Positions 43,566-53,330 are shown, numbered from the stretch's first letter. The stretch: DNA of 64,000 nucleotides from Deferribacterales bacterium (GCA_050251875.1 JBFWMA010000009.1:28951-92950); one strand, 5' to 3'. A program made the numbers and translations. Notes: generated from the letters alone by a model not told the origin.

Positions 43566-45965
43566 TTGAATCAAATTGATGCTTGGTTTCCTATGCCAAT
43601 GACAAAATATTTGATAAACGAACCACCATTGCTTGTGCTGCCGTCTCTTGCCAAATTACTTGGTTTGAATGAAGCTATCTTCACTCAGCAGCTGCATTAC
43701 TGGCTTGGTAAGTCAAAGCATCAGAATGATGGGGTGAGTTGGGTTTATAACACTTATGAAAACTGGCTTGAACAGTTTCCTTTCTGGAGCCTTAGGACTC
43801 TCAAAAGAATCGTCAAATCGTTGGAAGATTCTGAAATATTGATTTCCTCTGTTGAATTCAATAAGTATTTCAATAAGACAAAATGGTACAGAATAAATTA
43901 TTCAAAATTACGTGAAGTCACCGGAACTGATTTATATTCAGAGTACGTCATTGATGAATATCCACTTATATTTCAGCCTACTCTTGCCGTGAAACTTGGT
44001 TTAAATGAAGCTATCTTTTTGCAACAGCTTCATTATTGGCTCTCATATAGTTCAAGCGAGCGTGACTCAGCGTATTGGGTCGCAAATAGCTATAATCGCT
44101 GGATGACACAATTTTCATTCTGGAATAGGAAAACTCTGCAGCGGGTTATAAGTCGACTATCTTCTGACAATATCATCATATGCACTGACAGATTCAATGA
44201 AAGCAGAATGAATAAGACCAGATGGATAACTATTGTGTATGAGAGAATATCTGAAATTGCATATGGACAATCTGGCATGTCGTCAGGACAGAATGGCACT
44301 ACGAATGGACAATTTGGCACGACAGTATTGAATATCAAAGAAACTGCGAATGGACATAATGACACTTCGACTGGACACAATGGCACTACGATAGGACAAT
44401 CTGACATCCAGTCTGGACATGATGGCACTCTCAATGCCCAAAATGACACCCTCCGTCAGGACAATTTGGCACTTTCTCATTATATAGACTATTCTTCAGA
44501 GACTAGACATATAGATGACAGAGAGAAAGAGTGCAATGCAGAGCAATCTCCCATCAGCATAAGAGGTCATTATAATGATGCTTTTGATCAGTATAAAGAA
44601 TTAATCAATCAGGATGCAGTAAGCAGGTTTAATGTAATTTTTGAGACGTACATCAAAGAAGGTTTAAAGCTACATGGTCAGAGTTTTGTGGATAAGCTGT
44701 TTAGTGCAGTTAAGAGATCTGACTTTCTGTTGAGCTTTAAATCCGGCTTTCCAAAGCTGTCATGGCTCTTAAAGAACTCTTCTGCTGTTATTGCAGGAAA
44801 ATACGATACTGAGGGTTTCTCTGTTTTTGAAAGAGCACAGGAATGCTCAAATAAAAATTCAGATTGTGCGGTTTTGAAAGACGGAGTCTCTCCGTTCAGA
44901 TATTGCAGATACTGCAAAGCGTATGTGGCAAGGTTAAAAGAGCCAAAACAGGAAAAATCTATTGAGCAAATAATAAGTGACTGCAGGTCTGCCGGATACT
45001 GCGTTGTTAAGCGGTTAAGGCTTAAAAACTTCTTTGAATATTGTGATTCATGTGATTGGAAATCTGTTTCTGAGAAAAGGCAATCTGAAGAGATGCTGAT
45101 ACAGCAGGCGGCTGAGTGCTGGGAAAAATGTAAAGGTATGTGTGCTCCAAAAATAATGAAAACAGGAGCAACTGACAAATGCAGATATTGTCCCGGCGAT
45201 GGCGGAGGGAAGAAAAACAAAAAAATCATAACAAAGGATACTGCTGCGTCTGAGAACATCACAATAGATGGCGTTGATTTTAATAATCCGGAATCTGTCT
45301 GGAACAAGGCATTCGAGTTAACCGTTGCAAATAAGGCAAATAAAAGGAAAATAGCCAGCTATATCGCAAAGCATCTGCCTTTTTCGATATATTCCTTTGA
45401 AGATCTTGAAACAGAAGCCCTGCTTGTGGCATATGAAACCTTGGTTGTGCTTGCTGCAGAGGAGACAGTTATGACGCTTTCAGCTTTTGAAAGCAGGATG
45501 CTGATAAACCTGAAGCATCATTTTGAAGAGATACAGACAACACCGGCGTTGAGAGATGTTCTGAAGACCGCAGATAAATCAGCGTGTGTATTTGATGAGA
45601 TTTCAGAAATTGAAGATGAAACAGACGGAGAGGAGTTACTTCAATTTCCTGAAGAACTGATAAGAGAAATAATCAGGATACTGCCTCTGAGGCAGGAACA
45701 GGTACTTCATCACAGACTTGGACTTACAAACAGAGGATTTCTTTCGTTGTCTGAAACGGCACTGCTTTTAGGCTGTACCAAAGAAAATATACATATAGCG
45801 GAGAAAGACGGTATAAGAACGTTGGCAAAATTTGCTAATGAAAACAATATCTCCATGGGCGATGACATGGATGTCGTTAAGCAAAAGGTTGCTATGTATA
45901 TCAGCAACAATTTTAAGCCTGTCAAATTCTCAGGATATTTTGAACTCGGCGGACTTGCCATATAA
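43566..45965 (+). CDS. Large replication-initiator-like protein: 2x wHTH replisome-organiser-like repeats, heptad iteron-encoded linker, Cys-rich region, sigma-70 region-4-like C-terminal HTH
   Basis: Two ~105-aa repeats (LGLNEAIFTQQLHYWL...TKWYRINY and LGLNEAIFLQQLHYWL...TRWITIVY). Internal iterons are listed separately. C-terminus LPLRQEQVLHHRLGL...SLSETALLLGCTKENIHIAEKDGIRTL. The track start is TTG; an ATG lies at 43593. Confidence 0.6.
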   Translation: MNQIDAWFPMPMTKYLINEPPLLVLPSLAKLLGLNEAIFTQQLHYWLGKSKHQNDGVSWVYNTYENWLEQFPFWSLRTLKRIVKSLEDSEILISSVEFNKYFNKTKWYRINYSKLREVTGTDLYSEYVIDEYPLIFQPTLAVKLGLNEAIFLQQLHYWLSYSSSERDSAYWVANSYNRWMTQFSFWNRKTLQRVISRLSSDNIIICTDRFNESRMNKTRWITIVYERISEIAYGQSGMSSGQNGTTNGQFGTTVLNIKETANGHNDTSTGHNGTTIGQSDIQSGHDGTLNAQNDTLRQDNLALSHYIDYSSETRHIDDREKECNAEQSPISIRGHYNDAFDQYKELINQDAVSRFNVIFETYIKEGLKLHGQSFVDKLFSAVKRSDFLLSFKSGFPKLSWLLKNSSAVIAGKYDTEGFSVFERAQECSNKNSDCAVLKDGVSPFRYCRYCKAYVARLKEPKQEKSIEQIISDCRSAGYCVVKRLRLKNFFEYCDSCDWKSVSEKRQSEEMLIQQAAECWEKCKGMCAPKIMKTGATDKCRYCPGDGGGKKNKKIITKDTAASENITIDGVDFNNPESVWNKAFELTVANKANKRKIASYIAKHLPFSIYSFEDLETEALLVAYETLVVLAAEETVMTLSAFESRMLINLKHHFEEIQTTPALRDVLKTADKSACVFDEISEIEDETDGEELLQFPEELIREIIRILPLRQEQVLHHRLGLTNRGFLSLSETALLLGCTKENIHIAEKDGIRTLAKFANENNISMGDDMDVVKQKVAMYISNNFKPVKFSGYFELGGLAI
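44265..44472. repeat. About 9 iterons, GGACA-N3-TGGCAC consensus, phased at 21 bp: candidate origin of replication inside the rep ORF
   Basis: Copies start at 44265, 44286, 44307, 44352, 44373, 44394, 44415, 44436 (degenerate) and 44459. An AT-rich stretch (TTTCTCATTATATAGACTATTC...) follows. Confidence 0.65.
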
Positions 45966-46084: not shown

Positions 46085-46312
46085 ATGATAAAAACACTTA
46101 CGAAACATGGAAACAGTCTGGCGTTAGTTATTGAAAAGCCAGTTCTTGAGCTTCTTGGCGTTGATGCAGAAACCCCATTTGACATTACTACTGACGGAAA
46201 AGTCTTAATTCTTTCACCAGTCAAATCCGAGCAAAGAAAAGAAGAATTTAACTCAACACTGGAGAAGGTGAACTCAAAATACCAAAAAGCACTGAAAAAG
46301 CTGGCTGAGTAA
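46085..46312 (+). CDS. AbrB/MazE/SpoVT-fold antitoxin (partner of Doc)
   Basis: MIKTLTKHGNSLALVIEKPVLELLGVD...DGKVLILSPV is the swapped-hairpin AbrB signature. Confidence 0.8.
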   Translation: MIKTLTKHGNSLALVIEKPVLELLGVDAETPFDITTDGKVLILSPVKSEQRKEEFNSTLEKVNSKYQKALKKLAE

Positions 46313-46336
46313 ATAGATGGCTGAGTAAATAGATGG
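46305..46336 (+). repeat. Perfect 16-bp tandem duplication (CTGAGTAAATAGATGG x2) spanning the antitoxin stop and the doc start
   Basis: Read directly: 46305-46320 equals 46321-46336. Confidence 0.95.
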
Positions 46337-46722
46337 AGCCAAAGTTCCTAACAATTCCTGAGATACTTGAAATACATAAGGATCAAATAAGCCGTTATGG
46401 CGGAGACACGGGTATTCGTGATATTGATCTGCTCAAGTCTGCAATAGGCATGCCCTCTGCAACCTTTAACGGTCAATATTTACATGTCAGTATTTATGAA
46501 ATGGCAGCCGCTTATCTTTTTCACCTTGTACAGAACCATCCTTTTGTTGACGGAAATAAAAGGGTTGGAGCAGTTTCAGCTTTGATTTTTCTGATCTTGA
46601 ACGATTACGACTTTGAAGCTCCAGAGGATGATTTTTCAGAAATGGTTTTGAGAGTTGCCAAAGGTGAGTTGGATAAAGCTGGTATAAGCATGTTTATCAG
46701 ACAGTGGGCAAAGAAAGTATAG
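46333..46722 (+). CDS. doc: Doc-family (Fic fold) toxin
   Basis: HPFVDGNKRVG motif, 129 aa, preceded by an antitoxin gene. Confidence 0.9.
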   Translation: MEPKFLTIPEILEIHKDQISRYGGDTGIRDIDLLKSAIGMPSATFNGQYLHVSIYEMAAAYLFHLVQNHPFVDGNKRVGAVSALIFLILNDYDFEAPEDDFSEMVLRVAKGELDKAGISMFIRQWAKKV

Positions 46723-46740
46723 TATTTATAATGTATAAGC

Positions 46741-46770
46741 TATAAAAAAATGGGGAGCCGAAGCTCCCCA
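46741..46770 (-). terminator. Intrinsic terminator functional in the minus orientation only
   Basis: The minus strand reads GGGGAGC-UUCG-GCUCCCC followed by UUUUUUUAUA. In the plus orientation no U-tract follows the hairpin. Confidence 0.75.
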
Positions 46771-48173
46771 AATTGAGACAGACACGATAAACGGTGTCCG
46801 GTCTCTTAAACGTATTAACATCTGTAGCATGATACAGAACCTAGACCCCTTCGGCCAGCCGTCTTTTCAACAGCTCGTCTGTCCTTCGCTTACCTCTCTG
46901 GGATGCCACTCCCATAAAGTGCCGCAGGCTCTTAGCCTGGACGGTCGGACGCAGACGTGGTGCCTTCACACCGGGCTTACTACGAGTCCTCCGAGCCCTG
47001 CCTGACATTATCAGACAGGTTACTTCTCCGATTCAGACAATATACCAACAGCATTACCTGTCCCGGCATCGTGAGCTTTTACCTCACACATCCTATACAG
47101 CTCTTTAGGTGGCTCCTGTACTCAAATTTTCGGTGTTGGAGCAAATACCAACTTTGTTGCAGTTTTCGGGCTACGAAGTGTCACAGATCGCCTTACTCGC
47201 ACCTACACATAAAAGTTTTAAACGGAGCTTCCTCTCGTCACCATAAAGCTTCGGGTCGCCCTCACGGGCTTTAAATCAGCTGCTCTAACTGTAAAGGTTT
47301 ATACGGATGACCAGTCCATTAATCCCTATACAGCCGCTGATTCCCTTGCAGGTTAACTGAGCTTTTCAGCCCATATTCCCCTGTCCAAAAGGATGTCTGT
47401 CTTATCCAGACGCACCATTTCAATTTGCGAAAAAACAACCTCCTGTTATTTTTTCGCCACGTTCAGCACAGGAAACCTGTGCATCACTTACACTACGCAT
47501 AAATGCTCCGTGAGGCACATCCATGTGTCCCGCACTTTATAAATCGCCCTTTGTCGTGGAAAACTCTTACTCCGGAGCTTTCCTTATAATCCTGCTGGGA
47601 TTTGTTGAGGATCCCAGCCCTCCGGAATATTTCGGAAAGCACCTACGGCGATTTTACCACAACAGGAGTGTTGCGTTTTTATGTGAACTCAACTTACAGT
47701 CACACCCTGCTCTGGCGGAGCAGGTAGCTCCTGCAAGCTGGTTCCCAAACCGGACGTGCGGGTTTCCCTCGCATCCGGCTCTCCGGTTCATCCCTTATTC
47801 CACACTATGGCTTTTTGCTGCCGATGTTGGTCTACATCGGCCTGTGGACTTCGGGACTCACACTACAGTGTAATACGTTTAAAAAACCAGGCATCTATCT
47901 ATATCATCAGCTTCAGCCAACGTTTGTTGGCTTATGCTGTAGGCTGGGGAAAGTGCCTTTGACTGATTAATGTTTTGCGTTCGATACCGCCTCCGTATAC
48001 GGCCATGCCGTAAATCAGGAGAAATTAATCTCATCTTCTGCACTTGTTTGAATGGTTCTGCCGAAAGCAGAAAAGGTCATAGCCGGTGAAGCCGGTTATG
48101 TCAAATAAGCTGTACCATGGACAGTAAAGTCCCAGACGGCATTACCCGTTAAGTTCCGTATGCATCGCCTGAT

Positions 48174-48275
48174 GCGGTGGTGTTCCGCTGACTTCCGTGG
48201 CCGCAGTGGTGTACTGCGGTGATCTCCATACTATCTCTGATTCGCTGGTGTTGCGTGATACGTGGTGTCCGTATC
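48174..48275. repeat. Four hairpins with a shared heptaloop TGGTGTN (NACACCA on the minus strand)
   Basis: GCGG-TGGTGTT-CCGC (48174-48188), CCGCAG-TGGTGTA-CTGCGG (48201-48219), CGC-TGGTGTT-GCG (48243-48255), GATACG-TGGTGTC-CGTATC (48257-48275). Confidence 0.7.
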
Positions 48276-48392
48276 TCAGGACAGCAGGTTCATACAACTT
48301 CCGCAGAATGTCTCAGGGCATTGCGGTTGATCTGCGTTTCGCAGACTGACTATGGACAATCAAGTCCGATGTGTTTCATCAAATAATGAATA

Positions 48393-48422
48393 AATTTATT
48401 CCGTTTAAGCTGCGGATGTCAA
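48393..48422 (-). promoter_or_regulatory. Sigma-70-like promoter reading leftward into the ORF-free interval
   Basis: Minus strand: TTGACA (48422-48417), 18-nt spacer, TAAATT (48398-48393). Confidence 0.45.
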
Positions 48423-48464
48423 TGCTATTGCCGTGCGTTTTTATCCACTTCTGTAATACGTATT

Positions 48465-49562
48465 ATGTGCTTCGTATTATTGCGTTCTTTTAATCTGACG
48501 GTGATGACTTCACCTTGTCCGCATTTCTTGCGTATGAATATTGAAGATACATATTATCAGGTCAGACGTGCCCAGAGAATGATTCTAATGCGGCAGTATT
48601 TCCGCAATGGCGAGCTTTATGAAATTATGAACCGCAAAGCGTTCAATAATATGGCTGATAAGCTGTCGCAGAAGTATTTTCATATGGCCGGTTCTGTCAT
48701 TTACAAAGAGATGACAGAACTTTACAGAGTATATCTCTGCCTTGCCCCAATCATCCAGAAGCAGAAGAATAGCTTTAAGCTGGACTGGACGAAAGGGAAC
48801 ACACTCAGCTGGATGAGAAGGCTTTTTAATGGCAGCAACAAGAAATGGTATTACTCTCATGAAACAGTGATACGCGAACATAATGTCGAGTTATTTAAGT
48901 CTACATTGCGAAATCATGGGATAACTGATTCCGTCTTCATCGACTTCGCTTTGGAGAAATATCTCTGCTTCTGGAATGCAGACGGCAGAAAAGGAAGTCT
49001 TGCAAACTGCGTATTTGATCCGTTCTTTTTTAAAGCTCATGAGAGCGGATTGAGGTTTGAGAATAACCTTGTCAATACGAGTTCTTCAAGGAAGAGTGGC
49101 TACAAATATGTGTTTGATGAGCCAATTGAGATCATGTGTTATGTGATTTCTGCATCTATACGTAACGGTCGCACACATGTCGATGTGCAGCTGAGTAATG
49201 ACTATTTAAAAGCTCTCAAAGAGAGACTTATAAAAGCTATGGAAGGTAAATCCTCATATGCCCATAAACTCGTTATCCTGTCAGCGTTAGTGAATTCTTT
49301 TGTTGAAGATGCCAGATATGCAAAAGATGCTATGGAACAGGTGAAAGAGGTACAAAGGTACTTTATTAAGCATACAAAGAAATTCGCAGCCGGTAACGCC
49401 GAATTCAGACATACAGCGGGAGCAATAATCCCGCTCTGGCTTTCGAGAGTAACTAATAGATTTACCTATCAGAGAACAAACTTTTTCTGGGATATGGATC
49501 ACAATACAGTTCCTGAAAAGATCTATATGATTTATTTCAGCCCATACAGGGAGCAGATATGA
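48465..49562 (+). CDS. Hypothetical protein (no family recognised); the real start is probably an internal Met, e.g. MNIEDTYY at 48534
   Basis: 365-aa ORF with protein-like composition. It overlaps the next ORF by 4 nt (ATGA). A candidate plus-strand promoter, TTGCCG-N18-TGTAAT, lies at 48429-48458. Confidence 0.5.
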   Translation: MCFVLLRSFNLTVMTSPCPHFLRMNIEDTYYQVRRAQRMILMRQYFRNGELYEIMNRKAFNNMADKLSQKYFHMAGSVIYKEMTELYRVYLCLAPIIQKQKNSFKLDWTKGNTLSWMRRLFNGSNKKWYYSHETVIREHNVELFKSTLRNHGITDSVFIDFALEKYLCFWNADGRKGSLANCVFDPFFFKAHESGLRFENNLVNTSSSRKSGYKYVFDEPIEIMCYVISASIRNGRTHVDVQLSNDYLKALKERLIKAMEGKSSYAHKLVILSALVNSFVEDARYAKDAMEQVKEVQRYFIKHTKKFAAGNAEFRHTAGAIIPLWLSRVTNRFTYQRTNFFWDMDHNTVPEKIYMIYFSPYREQI

Positions 49563-49984
49563 TGCAGAATAATGAAAAGAAGTCAAAGCCCATGAGATAC
49601 CGAAAGGATCTCACTGCAGAGCATTTTAGAGTGCAACATGACTTCAGGAAAGGCTTAAAAAAACTGTCTGTTGAGCCGCTTTATCAGGGCGATATTTTTG
49701 ATTATTTGTATTTTCCGGTATGGGAAAGATTCGCTCCGGGGCAGTTTCGCTTTCTGACGCTTCAGCACAGAGCGGCGGTAATTACCGTGTTGTCGAACAA
49801 GGATGTTAAGAGAGTCTGTAATAACATTTACACCGACAAACAGACCGTTCTGAACGTATTTTTTGATTTGGTGGGGCTCGCTGTAGCAAAGCCAATAAGT
49901 GATGAACCTGTAATATACAAAATACGTTACGCAGAGACACCGTCTTATGCCTTTGTCTCAAGTAAAATCAAATTTCCCTTGTAA
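49559..49984 (+). CDS. Hypothetical protein
   Basis: 141-aa ORF translationally coupled to the previous one. No motif recognised. Confidence 0.45.
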   Translation: MMQNNEKKSKPMRYRKDLTAEHFRVQHDFRKGLKKLSVEPLYQGDIFDYLYFPVWERFAPGQFRFLTLQHRAAVITVLSNKDVKRVCNNIYTDKQTVLNVFFDLVGLAVAKPISDEPVIYKIRYAETPSYAFVSSKIKFPL

Positions 49985-50033: not shown

Positions 50034-50288
50034 GTGAAAGTCGTTAACTTTACAGAAGCAAGGAATAATCTGAAGTCTGTGCTTGATAGCGTTATAGACG
50101 ATGCGGATTATACTGTCATTACTCGCAGAGATTCAAATGACACCGTTGTGATGTCGCTGGATACCTTTAACAGTATTATGGAGACTTTCCATCTGCTTAA
50201 AACACCGGCGAATGCTGAACATCTTATGAAATCTATCAGCCAGTATAAGAATTCTCAGGTAAAGGTTGAGGACATCGTAGGTGAATAG
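50034..50288 (+). CDS. yefM: Phd/YefM-family antitoxin
   Basis: MKVVNFTEARNNLKSVLDSVIDDADYTVITRR...VVMSLDTFNSIMETFHLL. Confidence 0.9.
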   Translation: MKVVNFTEARNNLKSVLDSVIDDADYTVITRRDSNDTVVMSLDTFNSIMETFHLLKTPANAEHLMKSISQYKNSQVKVEDIVGE

Positions 50289-50541
50289 GCTGATAACCTG
50301 GACTGAAGCGGCATGGGAGGACTATGTTTACTGGCAGTCGCAGGATAGAAAAACAATCAAAAGAATAAATCTGCTCATAAAAGATGTTCTTCGGAGTCCA
50401 TTTGAAGGAATCGGAAAGCCGGAAGCCCTGAAGGAAAATCTTTCAGGATTCTGGTCAAGAAGAATTGATGACACCAATAGACTGGTTTATGCCGTTGAAG
50501 ACGATAAAATTGTTATTATTTCCTGCCGTTACCACTACTGA
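50281..50541 (+). CDS. yoeB: YoeB/Txe-family toxin
   Basis: W.DY.YWQ..D.K...RIN.LIKD..R.PF.GIGKPE.LK..LSGFWSRRID..NRLVY......I.IISCRYHY. Confidence 0.9.
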   Translation: MNRLITWTEAAWEDYVYWQSQDRKTIKRINLLIKDVLRSPFEGIGKPEALKENLSGFWSRRIDDTNRLVYAVEDDKIVIISCRYHY

Positions 50542-50632
50542 TTTAACGTCCTTTTGTCTCACAGAAAATAAAATATTGAAATATCATTGCAATTAGTTGC
50601 ATTATGCAATATTTTATACTCAGAGGTGGATT

Positions 50633-50860
50633 ATGGCACACGCAATAAGAATATCTGATGAGATAGTCGATTCTGCAAAGATTTTATCAAAGGTTGAAAA
50701 TCGCTCTGTTGGCGGTCAGATAGAGTATTGGGCAAAAATTGGTAAAATTGCAGAGGAAAATCCTGATTTTAATTTCAGCATGATTAAGGATCTGCTTGTT
50801 GCTCTTGAAGAGGCAAAGCATGGTGAGCTTGAGGAGTATAAGTTTGGGGAAGGGGCTTAA
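50633..50860 (+). CDS. ParD-like antitoxin
   Basis: MAHAIRISDEIVDSAKILSKVENRSVGGQIEYWAKIGKIAEENPD fits the ParD_like family as I remember it. GAGGTGG is upstream, and the stop overlaps the toxin start (TAATG). Confidence 0.6.
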   Translation: MAHAIRISDEIVDSAKILSKVENRSVGGQIEYWAKIGKIAEENPDFNFSMIKDLLVALEEAKHGELEEYKFGEGA

Positions 50861-51129
50861 TGCGTAAAATCCTCCAGACTCCTACCTTTGTAAAGAACAA
50901 GAAAAAACTACATAAAAATCAACTGGCAGAGCTTGATACAGCGATTAAAGCAATTTACAAGAATCCTTATATCGGAGAGCAAAAGAAAGGCAATCTGGCA
51001 TCAGTATTTGTGTATAAATGCAAAATTACAAAGCAGCTCTTTTTAATAGCCTATCAGTTTGATGACTCCGAGATAATCCTTCTCTCACTTGGCAGTCACG
51101 AGAACTTTTATAAAGAACTTAAAAGATAA
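50860..51129 (+). CDS. RelE/ParE-superfamily toxin
   Basis: 89 aa. F.K..KKL.K.Q...D.AI..I..NP.IGE.KKG.L..V.VYK......L.AY pattern. Confidence 0.65.
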   Translation: MRKILQTPTFVKNKKKLHKNQLAELDTAIKAIYKNPYIGEQKKGNLASVFVYKCKITKQLFLIAYQFDDSEIILLSLGSHENFYKELKR

Positions 51130-52519: not shown

Positions 52520-53330
52520 CTCGCCCGATTCTTTGTAGAACGAGGGACTCTTAGTTAATATGTATAAGCTATGCCATAGTCTTTAATGGTAATAAATGTC
52601 AGGCTGTCAGACTCCATGAAGAATATGGTCTTGAAGCTGAGCAGGCTTATATCAAAAATGTTTAAATATGATTATCCTGATGCTCCAATCAGATGCATGG
52701 GATATTTTGTGCAGTCTCTAAATATATTCGATGATATTTCTATAAGCAGATATAATTAGTCCTAAACCTGGAAATGAGAGGGTTCCTGATTTGTATTCTT
52801 CGATAACACTCACTGAACTTGAATAAGGTGTCACGAGAAGCCTGTATCGTGAAAAAAACAGAGAGGCATTGGCAATGGTTGTTTTCCCTATTGAGATTCC
52901 TGATTTTGACAATTTAGACTTGACAGCCTATCTCGTGCGAGAGCTTTATCTTTCTAAAACGCGGAATAGTTGGAAGAGATTTCTAAACCGCATTAACTGC
53001 CGCTATGGTTAAGATGTCCACAAGACAAGGACTAGACCTTTATGATATGGTTAACATGACCTTTTAGTCGCCATGTATCAAGATTTAGGATATGGTAACA
53101 GCACACTGATCTTATTTCGGACAGTTTTTTTGAATATAAAGTGATGTACTACTTGTCAGTTGGGTACGTGTATCGTTCCGTAGAGTAGGGATAGACATTT
53201 TAAGAAAGGACTCTTGTGCCAGTAAGTCGCAATTATGTGAATCTAATCAGACACTCCCTCATTCGAAATAAATACGATATAAGTTAAGTTGGTTTGCTTA
53301 CAGTATTACGGTTACTGTAAAATAGGCTAA

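What the first reader, a model, noticed from the sequence alone, without database searches (positions are those of the whole stretch)
46741..48422. 1.65-kb ORF-free, GC-enriched, promoter-to-terminator unit: candidate giant structured ncRNA on an integrated plasmid-like element
About 1.7 kb separates doc (ends 46722) from the next plausible CDS (48465).
- **No coding potential:** there is no minus-strand ORF of 60 aa or more. The three plus-strand ORFs (105, 116, 68 aa) give Cys/His/Arg/Ser/Pro-rich, un-protein-like translations.
- **Composition:** the stretch is visibly richer in G+C than the AT-rich island genes around it. For example, 47701-47760 is 39/60 G+C versus 24/60 for 46561-46620 in doc.
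- **Transcription signals (minus strand):** a sigma-70-like promoter (TTGACA 48422-48417, 18 nt, TAAATT 48398-48393) and a textbook terminator (GGGGAGC-UUCG-GCUCCCC plus U7, 46770-46741). The U-tract exists only in the minus orientation, yet there is no minus-strand gene to terminate.
- **Structure:** the interval is packed with perfect short helices. These include GCCC-GUGA-GGGC (a GNRA loop in the minus reading, 47258-47269) and a nested pair, 47572-47577/47620-47625 enclosing 47594-47601/47611-47618. Others lie at 47466-47482, 47707-47723, 47821-47840, 47915-47932, 48201-48219 and 48257-48275. The minus reading looks purine-rich.
- **Context:** size and mobile-element setting recall GOLLD/ROOL/OLE-type ornate RNAs. 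I cannot show homology to any of them, and at ~1.6 kb it would exceed them.
Basis: partly seen in the sequence, partly recalled or inferred. Interest (0 to 1): 0.85.

Follow-up and report, generated by a model that had tools for sequence, protein, structure and literature searches.

The report
Circularly permuted group II ribozyme gene
The 1.65-kb "empty" stretch encodes a large structured RNA that is a group II self-splicing intron with its parts in rearranged order, next to a gene for a disabled reverse-transcriptase-like helper protein. It belongs to a kind first described in 2021 but appears to be a separate, undescribed lineage.

Summary
Window 46741-48422 has no credible ORF, is GC-enriched, and runs on the minus strand from a conserved promoter to a conserved terminator.

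It is not an unknown ornate RNA. Rfam finds a group II intron D5-D6 in the middle (47783-47683). Fourteen homologs from Deferribacterales and metagenomes show the domain order D4(3' half)-D5-D6-[3' splice site, variable linker, 5' splice site GUGCG]-D1-D2-D3-D4(5' half)-terminator. That is a circularly permuted (CP) group II ribozyme. Covariation supports the fold: 154 of 281 pairs carry compensatory changes.

By analogy with the CP ribozymes of Roth et al. 2021, it should back-splice. The predicted products are a 267-nt RNA circle from the linker (47682-47416) and a branched ribozyme.

It differs from the published family in four ways:
- There is no detectable sequence similarity in either direction.
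- D5-D6 is canonical.
- The split D4 is closed by a long helix.
- The divergent neighbour gene (48534-49562) is not AcpG. It has a predicted RT/maturase fold and lacks a conserved YxDD motif.

Every homolog of that protein with enough upstream DNA carries the RNA.

Verdict: a real, large ribozyme gene and a new variant of a known kind. Its function is unknown.

The parts
48442..48452 (-). Conserved motif AGAAGUGGAUA about 20 nt upstream of the -35 hexamer, in the divergent promoter region. Possibly an operator.
   Evidence: Present in win, L006, L004, L005, L017, L014 and L022, with a variant in L012. Its function was not tested.
48393..48422 (-). Sigma-70-like promoter of the RNA: TTGACA, 18 nt, TAAATT.
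   Evidence: Found by the scan. The same hexamers and spacing occur in L006, L012 and L004. TTGACA-17-GATYAT occurs in L005, L017, L014 and L022.
48020..48386 (-). 5' leader. Variable in length and sequence between lineages. The first hairpin is GGAC-UUGAUU-GUCC (48367-48354).
   Evidence: Only the last 30-37 nt of the leader match L012 and L004 by blastn; the rest does not align. Fold z = -3.19. The first hairpin keeps pairing with changed bases in L004 (GAGC/GCUC) and L012 (GGGC/GCCU); this was read by eye.
47889..48019 (-). Conserved 5' hairpins (helices 1-4 of the alignment fold) that precede the split D4.
   Evidence: Helix 3 has compensatory changes in 6 of 9 pairs, and helix 4 in 5 of 6.
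47866..47888 (-). 3' strand of the distal D4 helix. It pairs with 46823-46800 near the 3' end of the RNA.
   Evidence: Inverted repeat I1: 23 nt, 1053 nt apart. Helix 6 has compensatory changes in 16 of 18 pairs.
47821..47840 (-). Hairpin upstream of D5, analogous to P2. Its loop GACCA (47832-47828) pairs with loop UGGUC in D1 (47313-47309).
   Evidence: Helix 9 is paired in 91% of cells. Two of its 5 pairs show double changes, for example UGCCA/UGGCA in L026.
47785..47790 (-). 3' strand of the basal D4 helix, immediately 5' of D5. It pairs with 46841-46836, immediately 3' of D3.
   Evidence: Helix 11 has compensatory changes in 5 of 6 pairs.
47747..47781 (-). Domain 5, the catalytic hairpin. 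It has the AGC triad, a 2-nt bulge and a GAAA loop.
   Evidence: RF00029 scores 45.8 bits against a gathering score of 40. Eight of 14 pairs show compensatory changes, and the triad is invariant.
47683..47745 (-). Domain 6. The bulged branch-point A is at 47689, and the predicted 3' splice site follows C47683 (...GAGUUCAC|AU).
   Evidence: Rfam alignment. GUUGAGUUCAC is almost invariant in 14 sequences. The A lies 7 nt from the 3' end. The splice site is inferred from the consensus.
47416..47682 (-). [quoted passage not shown] It is the predicted circular back-splicing product.
   Evidence: Length and sequence vary: 21-55 nt in most relatives, about 158 nt in L006, and 267 nt here. Fold z = -5.67. 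Circle formation is inferred from Roth et al. 2021.
47022..47415 (-). Domain 1, with these features:
- 5' splice site before GUGCG (47415-47411).
- EBS1-like loop CACUUC (47180-47175).
- 11-nt-receptor-like CCUAAAG/UAUAGG (47109-47092).
- GNRA hairpin (47269-47258).
   Evidence: GGUGCG is invariant in 14 sequences. The outer D1 stem and most inner helices show compensatory changes. The EBS1 and receptor assignments were made by eye.
46997..47019 (-). Domain 2, a short hairpin.
   Evidence: Helices 40 and 41 each have compensatory changes in 3 of 5 pairs.
46843..46996 (-). J2/3 and domain 3. The base of D3 carries a loop-E-like AGUA/GAA motif.
   Evidence: Helices 42-47 are 90-100% paired, and most pairs show compensatory changes. 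The loop-E motif was read from the alignment.
46800..46841 (-). 5' strands of the basal and distal D4 helices. They pair with 47790-47785 and 47888-47866.
46741..46799 (-). 3' hairpin and rho-independent terminator (GGGGAGC-UUCG-GCUCCCC followed by U7).
   Evidence: Found by the scan. A terminator-like hairpin sits at the same alignment position in nearly all aligned homologs, with different stem sequences.
48534..49562 (+). Divergently transcribed 342-aa protein with an RT/maturase-like fold. The YxDD position reads FENN.
   Evidence: - AlphaFold: pLDDT 88.9, pTM 0.82.
- Foldseek top hits are group II intron RT/maturases: 8t2r_D (E 3.8e-4), 8t2s_D, 6ar1_D, 7uim_D, 5irg_C, and Prp8.
- One of 56 family members hits Pfam GIIM at E 2e-4.
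- No DD pair is conserved in the family.
- Every homolog locus with enough upstream DNA carries the RNA.
49559..49984 (+). 141-aa ORF that overlaps the stop codon of the RT-like gene. It is a conserved companion of unknown function.
   Evidence: An ORF of 116-146 aa follows the RT-like gene in L012-L014, L016-L021, L025 and L026. It has no Pfam, PHROG or NCBIfam hit.

Best explanation
The interval is the gene for a circularly permuted group II ribozyme on the minus strand.

**Transcription.** A sigma-70-type promoter (48422-48393) probably starts a transcript of about 1.65 kb. It ends at the rho-independent terminator (46770-46741).

**Domain order after the leader.**
1. 3' half of D4, plus an accessory hairpin.
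2. D5.
3. D6.
4. 3' splice site (after C47683).
5. 267-nt linker.
6. 5' splice site (before G47415 of GUGCG).
7. D1, D2, D3.
8. 5' half of D4.

**Folding.** The two ends of the RNA pair to rebuild D4. A kissing loop ties the accessory hairpin to a loop in D1. These contacts would bring D5-D6 onto the D1-D3 scaffold as in an ordinary group II intron.

**Reaction (inferred by analogy with the CP ribozymes tested by Roth et al. 2021).** The bulged A47689 of D6 attacks the downstream 5' splice site. The freed 3'-OH of the linker then attacks the upstream 3' splice site. This releases the linker as a 267-nt RNA circle and leaves a branched two-armed ribozyme.

**Protein partner (inferred).** The divergently transcribed 342-aa protein has a reverse-transcriptase/maturase fold without the catalytic YxDD. 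It most likely binds the RNA and helps it fold, as intron maturases do, rather than polymerising DNA.

**Context and role.** The RNA, the RT-like gene and a 141-aa gene form a conserved module. It sits between the replication initiator and the ParM partition genes of an integrated plasmid-like element of a Deferribacterales bacterium. The biological role of the circle or of the RNP is not known. A role in the element's maintenance or regulation is only suggested by position.
For: **Shown:**
- RF00029 D5-D6 hits above the gathering score here and in the 7 relatives scanned with Rfam that have upstream DNA. A D5 pattern is found in further loci.
- GGUGCG is invariant 119-366 nt downstream of the start of D5. 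It opens a 630-nt block that is about 80% identical between lineages.
- The linker between GAGUUCAC and GUGCG varies from 21 to 267 nt.
- The consensus fold of the 14-sequence MAFFT alignment is well supported:
  - 91.1% of cells are paired, against 78.7% in shuffles and 36-40% with slid partners.
  - 154 of 281 pairs carry double changes, against 84 in shuffles (0 of 500 shuffles reach the observed value).
- The long-range helices that join the region upstream of D5 to the 3' end are strongly supported. The distal helix has compensatory changes in 16 of 18 pairs, the basal helix in 5 of 6.
- The kissing loop shows compensatory changes.
- Promoter and terminator are conserved.
- There is no coding signal in any frame.
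- The protein model is confident, and its best PDB matches are group II intron RTs/maturases and Prp8. There is a weak GIIM hit. No DD is conserved.
- RNA and protein are linked in every locus with enough upstream DNA, down to 28% protein identity.

**From the literature:** CP group II RNAs with this domain order self-process in vitro into circles and branched products (PMC8637638).
Against: - No experiment or transcriptome was available. The transcript ends, both splice sites, the branch point and catalysis are all inferred from consensus.
- The EBS1-IBS1 pairing I propose has a mismatch in most sequences.
- The D1 substructure comes from RNAalifold and has not been checked against a solved structure.
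- The Foldseek match of the protein is moderate (TM 0.44-0.49, rmsd about 12 A, E 3.8e-4). No sequence profile search hits RVT_1 or any RT in the PDB.
- The linker sequence is not conserved, so the circle may not be the functional product.
Confidence: 0.78

Rival explanations
1. It is simply a divergent member of the CP group II family published by Roth et al. 2021. Under this reading there was one permutation event, and the 342-aa protein is a divergent AcpG.
For: - The domain order is the same, with a variable linker between the reversed splice sites.
- A hairpin upstream of D5 has a UGCCA-type loop that pairs with a UGGCA-type loop, as in the published P2-D2 pseudoknot.
- The setting is similar: plasmid-type elements, with a divergent upstream ORF.
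- hhalign gives colinear but non-significant alignments between the two proteins.
Against: - A published family member used as an nhmmer query finds the pPNAP05 RNA at E 3e-19 but nothing in this window or its relatives.
- Our family HMM finds all of ours at E 1e-164 or better, but nothing in pTT8 or pPNAP05.
- RF00029 hits all of ours but neither published example, even at E 1-10.
- The kissing partner lies in D1 here, not in D2.
- The ends are joined by a long D4 helix rather than a P1-to-3'-end pseudoknot.
- AcpG against our protein: hhalign probability 0.2-0.5%.
- The AcpG model has no RT-like PDB match.
- No Deferribacteres entry appears in the paper's supplements.
Confidence: 0.15
2. It is a decaying remnant: fragments of one or two group II introns left by rearrangement, no longer functional.
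For: - No RT ORF lies inside the RNA.
- The domain order is non-canonical.
- The leader and linker are long and variable.
Against: - The same permuted order, the invariant catalytic motifs (AGC triad, branch A, GUGCG) and the terminator are kept in 14 sequences whose neighbouring proteins are only 28-96% identical.
- Compensatory changes are abundant.
- The core is about 80% identical at the nucleotide level where the neighbouring protein is 43-61% identical.
Confidence: 0.04
3. It is an ordinary ORF-less group II intron (48386 to 47683, D1-D6 in normal order), followed by an unrelated 940-nt 3' RNA or exon.
For: D5-D6 lie about 600 nt downstream of the promoter, roughly the size of D1-D4.
Against: - The 367-nt leader is not conserved even in an 87%-identical relative.
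- Relatives have only about 360 nt between promoter and D5, and no GUGYG there.
- GUGCG and the conserved D1-D3 block lie downstream of D6.
- The region just upstream of D5 pairs with the 3' end of the RNA, with covariation.
Confidence: 0.02
4. It is a wholly new ornate RNA class unrelated to known ribozymes.
For: - It is large and sits on a mobile element.
- No Rfam hit covers more than 100 nt of it.
Against: The group II hallmarks are present: D5-D6 above the Rfam gathering score, GUGCG, a loop-E-like motif at the base of D3, a GAAA loop with an 11-nt-receptor-like motif, and an RT-fold partner protein.
Confidence: 0.01

Closest known systems
CP (circularly permuted) group II ribozymes of Roth, Weinberg, Vanderschuren, Murdock and Breaker 2021 (PMC8637638). 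Examples: Comamonas testosteroni Cte 1, Thermus thermophilus pTT8, Polaromonas pPNAP05.
   Same: - Domain order D5-D6-linker-D1-D2-D3-D4.
[quoted passage not shown]
- No ORF lies inside the RNA.
- An accessory hairpin upstream of D5 makes a loop-loop pseudoknot.
- The RNA is found on plasmids or plasmid-like elements near replication genes.
- An unrelated-looking ORF is often divergent upstream.
   Different: - No detectable sequence similarity in either direction.
- D5-D6 here is canonical and passes RF00029, whereas the published examples do not.
- The 5' splice site is GUGCG rather than GGGCG.
- The kissing partner is a loop in D1 rather than in D2.
- The 5' and 3' ends form a helix of about 24 bp (split D4) rather than a P1-to-3'-end pseudoknot.
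- The partner protein has an RT/maturase fold and is not AcpG.
- The host is Deferribacterales, which is not in the published list.
- The linker reaches 267 nt, against 32-86 nt for the published circles.
Canonical bacterial group II introns with an intron-encoded RT/maturase.
   Same: - D5 has the AGC triad, a 2-nt bulge and a GAAA loop.
- D6 has a bulged A 7 nt from an AY 3' end.
- The 5' end reads GUGCG.
- D3 has a loop-E-like motif at its base.
- D1 has an 11-nt-receptor-like motif.
- The partner protein's best structural matches are group II intron RTs.
   Different: - The domain order is permuted.
- The protein gene lies outside the RNA on the opposite strand.
- The protein has no Pfam RVT_1 hit and no conserved YxDD.
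- Because there are no flanking exons to join, the predicted product is a circle.
Trans-spliced organellar group II introns split in domain 4, and engineered permuted intron-exon constructs (Jarrell 1993, as cited in PMC8637638).
   Same: The break point is in D4. The two halves are held together by base pairing of the D4 strands and by tertiary contacts. The engineered permuted version gives circles and branched products.
   Different: Here both halves are on one natural bacterial transcript in permuted order. The arrangement is conserved across a family with its own protein partner.
Degenerate maturases and RT-fold proteins without polymerase activity, such as Prp8 and the plant MatK/nMAT-type maturases (the latter from general knowledge).
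   Same: An RT-like fold is kept as an RNA-binding scaffold while the catalytic Asp residues are lost. Prp8 is among the Foldseek hits.
   Different: There is no sequence-level membership. RNA binding and maturase activity have not been tested for this protein.

Membership tests
Group II intron (ribozyme core) | Domain 5: a hairpin of about 34 nt with the AGC catalytic triad, a 2-nt bulge and a GNRA loop. | tested here: met
   RF00029 scores 45.8 bits (gathering score 40) at 47783-47683, and 42.7-50.7 bits in 7 relatives. Eight of 14 D5 pairs show compensatory changes, and the triad is invariant.
Group II intron (ribozyme core) | Domain 6 with a bulged branch-point A 7-8 nt from a 3' end that reads AY. 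| tested here: met
   GUUG-A-GUUCAC is nearly invariant. The A lies 7 nt from the terminal C, and the RNA ends in AC or AU. Branching itself was not tested.
Group II intron (ribozyme core) | 5' end reads GUGYG, followed by a large D1 that is closed by a stem. | tested here: met
   GUGCG is invariant in 14 sequences. The D1 closing stems show covariation: helix 16 has 1 of 5 pairs with double changes, and helix 17 has 5 of 6.
Group II intron (ribozyme core) | Tertiary partners: a receptor for the D5 tetraloop (zeta-zeta'), EBS1-IBS1, and a loop-E motif at the base of D3. | tested here: inconclusive
   - An 11-nt-receptor-like CUAAG/UAUGG motif is conserved in D1.
- AGUA/GAA sits at the base of D3.
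- A CACUUC loop is complementary to the last linker bases: 6 of 6 in L023, 5 of 6 in most others.

All three were read by eye. No structural test was possible.
Group II intron (canonical mobile intron) | Domain order D1-D2-D3-D4-D5-D6 between two exons. | tested here: not met
   D5-D6 precede GUGCG and D1-D3 in all 14 sequences.
Group II intron (canonical mobile intron) | An intron-encoded RT with RVT_1 motifs, including YxDD, encoded in the D4 loop. | tested here: not met
   - No ORF lies inside the RNA.
- The RT-fold gene is outside the RNA on the opposite strand.
- It has no RVT_1 hit and no conserved DD.
CP group II ribozyme (Roth et al. 2021), as an architecture | [quoted passage not shown] | tested here: met
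   The linker is 21-267 nt.
CP group II ribozyme (Roth et al. 2021), as an architecture | Self-processing into a circular linker and a branched product. | not testable with these tools
   This needs in vitro transcription and PAGE, or RT-PCR across the junction.
CP-group-II alignment of Roth et al. (the sequence family) | Detectable similarity to family members. | tested here: not met
   - nhmmer with family member SRS063288 finds pPNAP05 at E 3e-19 and nothing here at E up to 1.
- Our HMM finds nothing in pTT8 or pPNAP05.
CP-group-II alignment of Roth et al. (the sequence family) | P2-D2 loop-loop pseudoknot, and a pseudoknot between the P1 loop and the 3' end. | tested here: not met
   - A P2-like hairpin exists, but its loop pairs with a loop in D1 (47313-47309).
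- D2 is a simple hairpin with no complementarity to it.
- The ends are joined by a long helix.
- The domain assignment rests on the RNAalifold fold.
AcpG (TTHC007) protein family | Sequence or profile similarity to AcpG. | tested here: not met
   - BLASTP gives nothing.
- hhalign probability is 0.2% (A1 vs A2) and 0.5% (A4 vs A2).
- The AcpG model has no RT-like PDB match.
- The two models could not be superposed directly.
Reverse transcriptase / group II maturase fold | Right-hand polymerase fold (fingers, palm) with a maturase (X/thumb) domain. | tested here: met
   - The model has pLDDT 88.9 and pTM 0.82.
- Five of the top 6 Foldseek PDB hits are group II intron RTs/maturases, with the best at E 3.8e-4, probability 1.0 and TM 0.49.
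- One of 56 family members hits Pfam GIIM at E 2e-4.
- Support is moderate and rests on a predicted structure.
Reverse transcriptase / group II maturase fold | Catalytic YxDD motif, needed for polymerase activity. | tested here: not met
   The hairpin at residues 171-183 reads LRFENNLV. The family consensus is L-R-x-G-[NRD]-x, with no conserved acidic pair. Placing this hairpin at motif C is my inference from the secondary structure.

The most novel reading that the evidence does not exclude
This is a second, independently permuted lineage of group II ribozymes. Unlike the published CP family, it kept a descendant of the intron-encoded protein: an RT-fold, polymerase-dead maturase that is now encoded divergently beside the RNA.

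The RNA, this protein and the 141-aa protein would form a dedicated RNP module of plasmid-like replicons in Deferribacterota. Its conserved place between the replication initiator and the partition genes would reflect a role in the element's maintenance, copy control or competition. The variable linker would be released as a circular RNA cargo.
Probability: 0.4. Interest if true: 0.78.

Novelty: new variant of a known kind. Interest (0 to 1): 0.66.

Why it matters
**An open question.** Natural circularly permuted group II ribozymes were described only in 2021, and their biological role is still unknown. The published family has no recognisable protein partner beyond the uncharacterised AcpG.

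**What this lineage adds.**
- It is clearly closer to canonical introns, which suggests that permutation at D4 happened more than once, or that the class is much broader than the one published alignment.
- It has a tightly linked protein with a maturase-like fold. That gives a concrete, testable hypothesis for an RNP.

**It is testable in culture.** The RNA occurs in the chromosome of a cultured, sequenced strain, Denitrovibrio acetiphilus DSM 12809 (locus L014). Expression, circle formation and knock-outs could therefore be tested directly.

**Practical interest.**
- Natural back-splicing ribozymes are being engineered for circular RNA production. A family that tolerates linkers from 21 to 267 nt and has a helper protein is relevant to that work.
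- For annotation, an Rfam D5-D6 hit without a nearby RT gene can mark a permuted ribozyme rather than an intron fragment.

Tried and rejected
- **Decayed protein gene.** Six-frame translations against Pfam at E up to 1 gave nothing relevant.
- **Known ornate RNAs, other introns, tmRNA, RNase P.** Rfam scans at gathering and at E up to 10 found only RF00029 and related D5 models. The group II D1-D4 models did not hit.
- **Nucleotide homologs in plasmid and phage collections.** The only hit was a 51-nt D5 match in a Streptomyces plasmid. An IMG/VR pattern scan with a conserved 27-mer gave no matches. IMG/VR has no relatives of the protein either.
- **Exact look-ups of the neighbour protein.** Both start codons failed. 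The doc look-up returned only near-identical copies, 99.2-99.9% identical.
- **First guess for the 5' splice site.** I took GUGCG at 47535 first. I rejected it because that segment is a 109-nt indel absent from L006. The conserved GUGCG is at 47415.
- **A back-splice-dependent ORF in the circle** (AUG at the junction, 33 codons). I rejected it for three reasons, all read by eye:
  - The AUG is absent in L006.
  - Substitutions between the two copies are mostly non-synonymous.
  - The SD-like AGGAGG is 20 nt from the AUG.
- **AcpG homology.** Tested by BLASTP, by two profile-profile comparisons and by a structure prediction. None supported it.
- **Profile of the RT-like family against PDB sequences.** No RT hit.
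- **att sites and a tRNA at the island borders.** Nothing found.
- **Iterons or repeats in the leader.** Only short two-copy matches at chance level.
Full report
**1. Checking the observation**

The interval between doc (46333-46722, Fic/DOC) and the next gene has no minus-strand ORF of 60 aa or more. Its plus-strand ORFs are 105, 116 and 68 aa. None of the six frames hits Pfam at E up to 1.

G+C is 0.46-0.51 here and 0.36-0.41 in the surrounding island.

The scan reports the minus-strand promoter-like site TTGACA-18-TAAATT (48422..48393). It also reports the terminator stem 46770..46751 with its T-run.

Folding energies are better than dinucleotide shuffles for all three parts I tested: z = -3.12, -3.19 and -5.67. 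The description is accurate.

**2. What it matches**

Rfam at gathering thresholds gives one hit in the whole 64-kb window. It is RF00029, the D5-D6 part of group II introns, on the minus strand at 47783-47683 (45.8 bits, gathering score 40).

D5-D6 normally lie at the 3' end of an intron. Here they sit in the middle of the unit, with 940 nt of ORF-free sequence after them.

A literature search turned up Roth et al. 2021 (PMC8637638). They describe natural circularly permuted (CP) group II ribozymes of about 900 nt:
- The order is P1-P2-D5-D6-linker-D1-D2-D3-D4.
- In vitro they produce a circular linker and a branched product.
- They occur on plasmids and chromosomes.
- They are often next to a divergent ORF named AcpG.

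**3. Homologs**

Nucleotide searches of plasmid and phage collections found only D5. I therefore used the neighbouring protein (48534-49562) as an anchor.
- It has only 13 word-indexed homologs and 91 clusters in the exhaustive profile search.
- The named ones are Deferribacterales, including Denitrovibrio acetiphilus Dacet_0537.

I fetched 23 loci.
- Every scanned locus with enough upstream DNA has an RF00029 hit on the opposite strand upstream of the gene.
- A D5 pattern search extends this to the later loci.

The window itself comes from a Deferribacterales MAG close to Seleniivibrio.

**4. Anatomy**

blastn and MAFFT alignments show the following:
- D5-D6 are conserved and end in GUUG-A-GUUCAC.
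- A linker follows, variable in length and sequence. It is 21-55 nt in most relatives, about 158 nt in L006 and 267 nt here.
- An invariant GGUGCG opens a 630-nt block that is about 80% identical between lineages. The neighbouring proteins of those lineages are only 43-61% identical.
- Nearly all aligned homologs end in a rho-independent terminator-like hairpin with different stem sequences.

The segment just upstream of D5 and a segment about 100 nt further upstream are complementary to the two segments that follow D3. The repeat finder reports the longer pair as a 23-nt inverted repeat 1053 nt apart.

The order is therefore: D4 (3' strands), D5, D6, 3' splice site, linker, 5' splice site, D1, D2, D3, D4 (5' strands). 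This is what a circular permutation opened in the D4 loop would give.

**5. Covariation**

I ran RNAalifold on the MAFFT alignment and added one kissing loop seen by eye. This gave 281 pairs, and counting them gave these results:
- 91.1% of cells are paired, against 78.7% in shuffles and 36-40% when partners are slid by 1-3 columns.
- 154 pairs carry changes on both sides, against 84 in shuffles. None of 500 shuffles reached the observed value.
- Distal D4 helix: 16 of 18 pairs with compensatory change.
- Basal D4 helix: 5 of 6.
- D5: 8 of 14, with the AGC triad invariant.
- D6, the D1 stems, D2 and D3 are all well supported.
- The loop GACCA of the hairpin at 47840-47821 pairs with UGGUC at 47313-47309 in D1. 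L026 has UGCCA/UGGCA.

Caveat: the sequences are related and the structure was derived from this alignment, so the shuffle control overstates significance. The slid controls and the per-helix double changes are the stronger evidence.

**6. Group II hallmarks read from the alignment (by eye)**
- The branch A47689 lies 7 nt from the terminal C47683, and the RNA ends in AY.
- GUGCG is at 47415-47411.
- AGUA/GAA, a loop-E-like motif, sits at the base of D3.
- The D5 GAAA loop has an 11-nt-receptor-like CUAAG/UAUGG motif in D1 (47109-47092).
- The loop CACUUC (47180-47175) is complementary to the last bases of the linker. The match is perfect in L023 and has one mismatch in most other sequences.

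**7. Transcript ends**

- The same hexamers and spacing occur in L006, L012 and L004. A TTGACA-17-GATYAT version occurs in four more loci.
- A conserved AGAAGUGGAUA motif lies about 20 nt upstream.

The 367-nt leader is not conserved, apart from a first hairpin and its last 30-37 nt. Relatives have only about 360-480 nt between promoter and D5. The conserved core is about 1.0 kb. The leader and the 267-nt linker make this copy unusually long.

**8. The neighbouring protein**

It has no Pfam, PHROG or NCBIfam hit.

AlphaFold with the 14-sequence alignment gives pLDDT 88.9 and pTM 0.82.

Foldseek against the PDB ranks group II intron RNP, RT and maturase chains first: 8t2r_D (E 3.8e-4, probability 1.0, TM 0.49), 8t2s_D, 6ar1_D, 7uim_D and 5irg_C. 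Prp8 is interleaved, and a retron RT and viral RdRPs rank lower.

One of 56 family members hits Pfam GIIM at E 2e-4, about 0.01 after correcting for 56 proteins.

Three stretches resemble RT motifs; this is my own by-eye reading:
- The most conserved peptide, (R/K)G-x-LA(N/R), resembles RT motif B.
- The beta-hairpin after it reads LRFENNLV, where RTs have YxDD.
- Across the family no acidic pair is conserved at that hairpin.

I conclude that the protein has an RT/maturase fold and is probably not a polymerase.

A 116-146-aa ORF follows it in most of the loci that extend downstream of it. Its function is unknown.

**9. Relation to the published CP family**

- **AcpG.** BLASTP gives nothing. 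hhalign gives 0.2% and 0.5% probability. A confident AcpG model (pLDDT 87.6) has no PDB match better than E 0.9 and none that is RT-like.
- **RNA.** A published family member used as an nhmmer query finds the pPNAP05 RNA at E 3e-19, but nothing in this window or six relatives. The HMM of our family finds all of ours at E 1e-164 or better, but nothing in pTT8 or pPNAP05.
- **Rfam.** RF00029 finds neither published example, even at E 1-10.
- **Taxa.** The paper's supplements contain no Deferribacteres names or the D. acetiphilus accession.
- **Later work.** A search for later papers found only structural work on the Comamonas ribozyme.

The architecture is that of the known kind. The sequence family, the way the ends are tied together and the protein partner are different.

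I cannot decide between one ancient permutation and two independent ones.

**10. Context**

The island (about 39.5-53.3 kb, G+C 0.35-0.42) carries:
- a tyrosine integrase;
- XRE regulators;
- a 799-aa protein with two DnaD-like/replication-initiator repeats (phrog_6493, E 4e-65);
- PhD/Doc;
- the RNA;
- the RT-like and 141-aa genes;
- two further toxin-antitoxin pairs;
- a ParM-like ATPase.

The order Rep - RNA - RT-like - small ORF - ParM recurs in relatives, with different toxin-antitoxin modules inserted.

**11. Mechanism and limits**

*Shown:* the conserved, covarying, permuted group II architecture; the conserved promoter and terminator; the linkage to an RT-fold protein.

*Inferred:* the splice sites; branching at A47689; release of a 267-nt circle; the maturase role of the protein.

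*Unknown:* the biological function. The linker is not conserved, so the circle may be cargo or a by-product. The conserved position between replication and partition genes is the only hint of a role.

Noticed in passing
window 49559-49984 (+): A 141-aa ORF overlaps the stop codon of the RT-like gene (ATGA). It has a counterpart of 116-146 aa downstream of that gene in most of the related loci that extend that far. It has no hit in Pfam, PHROGs or NCBIfam, and may be a third component of the module.
   Followed up: partly
window 48442-48452 (-), and the same position in L004, L005, L012, L014, L017 and L022: The motif AGAAGTGGATA lies about 20 nt upstream of the RNA's -35 hexamer, between the divergent RNA and RT-like genes. 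It is conserved across lineages whose surrounding sequence does not align, so it could be an operator.
   Followed up: partly
window 47556-47662 (-) versus L004 5862-5966: About 107 nt of the linker (the predicted circle) are 72% identical to a segment of L004. There the segment lies outside the RNA, between the start of the RT-like gene and the RNA promoter. This suggests the linker cargo was acquired from, or exchanged with, the intergenic region.
   Followed up: no
window 47425-47533 (-): A 109-nt segment of the linker is absent from the 97%-identical relative L006. It begins with a second GUGCG and ends in a strong hairpin, GCGAAAAAAUAAC-AGGAG-GUUGUUUUUUCGC. It has no other copy in the window or in any fetched locus.
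   Followed up: partly
window 43566-45965 (+): The 799-aa protein has two tandem DnaD-like/replication-initiator N-terminal repeats, a Gly/Thr/Asn-rich repeat region (three 67-nt DNA repeats at 44253-44448), Cys-rich segments and a weak sigma-70 region-4-like C-terminus. It is an unusual replication initiator, 791-861 aa long in relatives.
   Followed up: partly
window 46085-46722, 50034-50541 and 50597-51129 (+): Three toxin-antitoxin-like pairs lie within 5 kb: PhD/Doc, a YefM/YoeB-like pair and a RelE/ParE-like pair (the last two judged by size and arrangement). Relatives carry different modules (HipAB, PIN/MazE-like, RelB/YafQ, RES) at the same positions around the RNA module.
   Followed up: no
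proteins P0129-P0187 (alignment A4): The RT-like family extends to about 91 clusters at 50% identity. It includes 370-400-aa members with an insertion of about 25 aa before the palm hairpin. Whether these distant members also sit next to permuted ribozymes could not be checked, because the look-ups were exhausted.
   Followed up: no
window 48434-48444 and 47672-47682; also 46723-46743 and 52552-52572: A perfect 11-nt direct repeat (ATAAAAACGCA on the minus strand) lies once just upstream of the promoter and once exactly at the start of the linker. A 21-nt repeat (86% identical) follows both doc and the ParR-like gene. Both are near chance expectation, and neither is explained.
   Followed up: no
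L022 2405-3618 (-), D6 region: One relative carries an insertion of about 115 nt inside the distal part of D6. L023 carries insertions of about 200 nt and 35 nt in D1 hairpin tips. The ribozyme appears to tolerate large peripheral insertions.
   Followed up: no
L027 (pTT8) and L028 (pPNAP05): Rfam release 15 has no model that detects the published CP group II RNAs in these two plasmids. Such RNAs are therefore invisible to routine Rfam-based annotation.
   Followed up: partly
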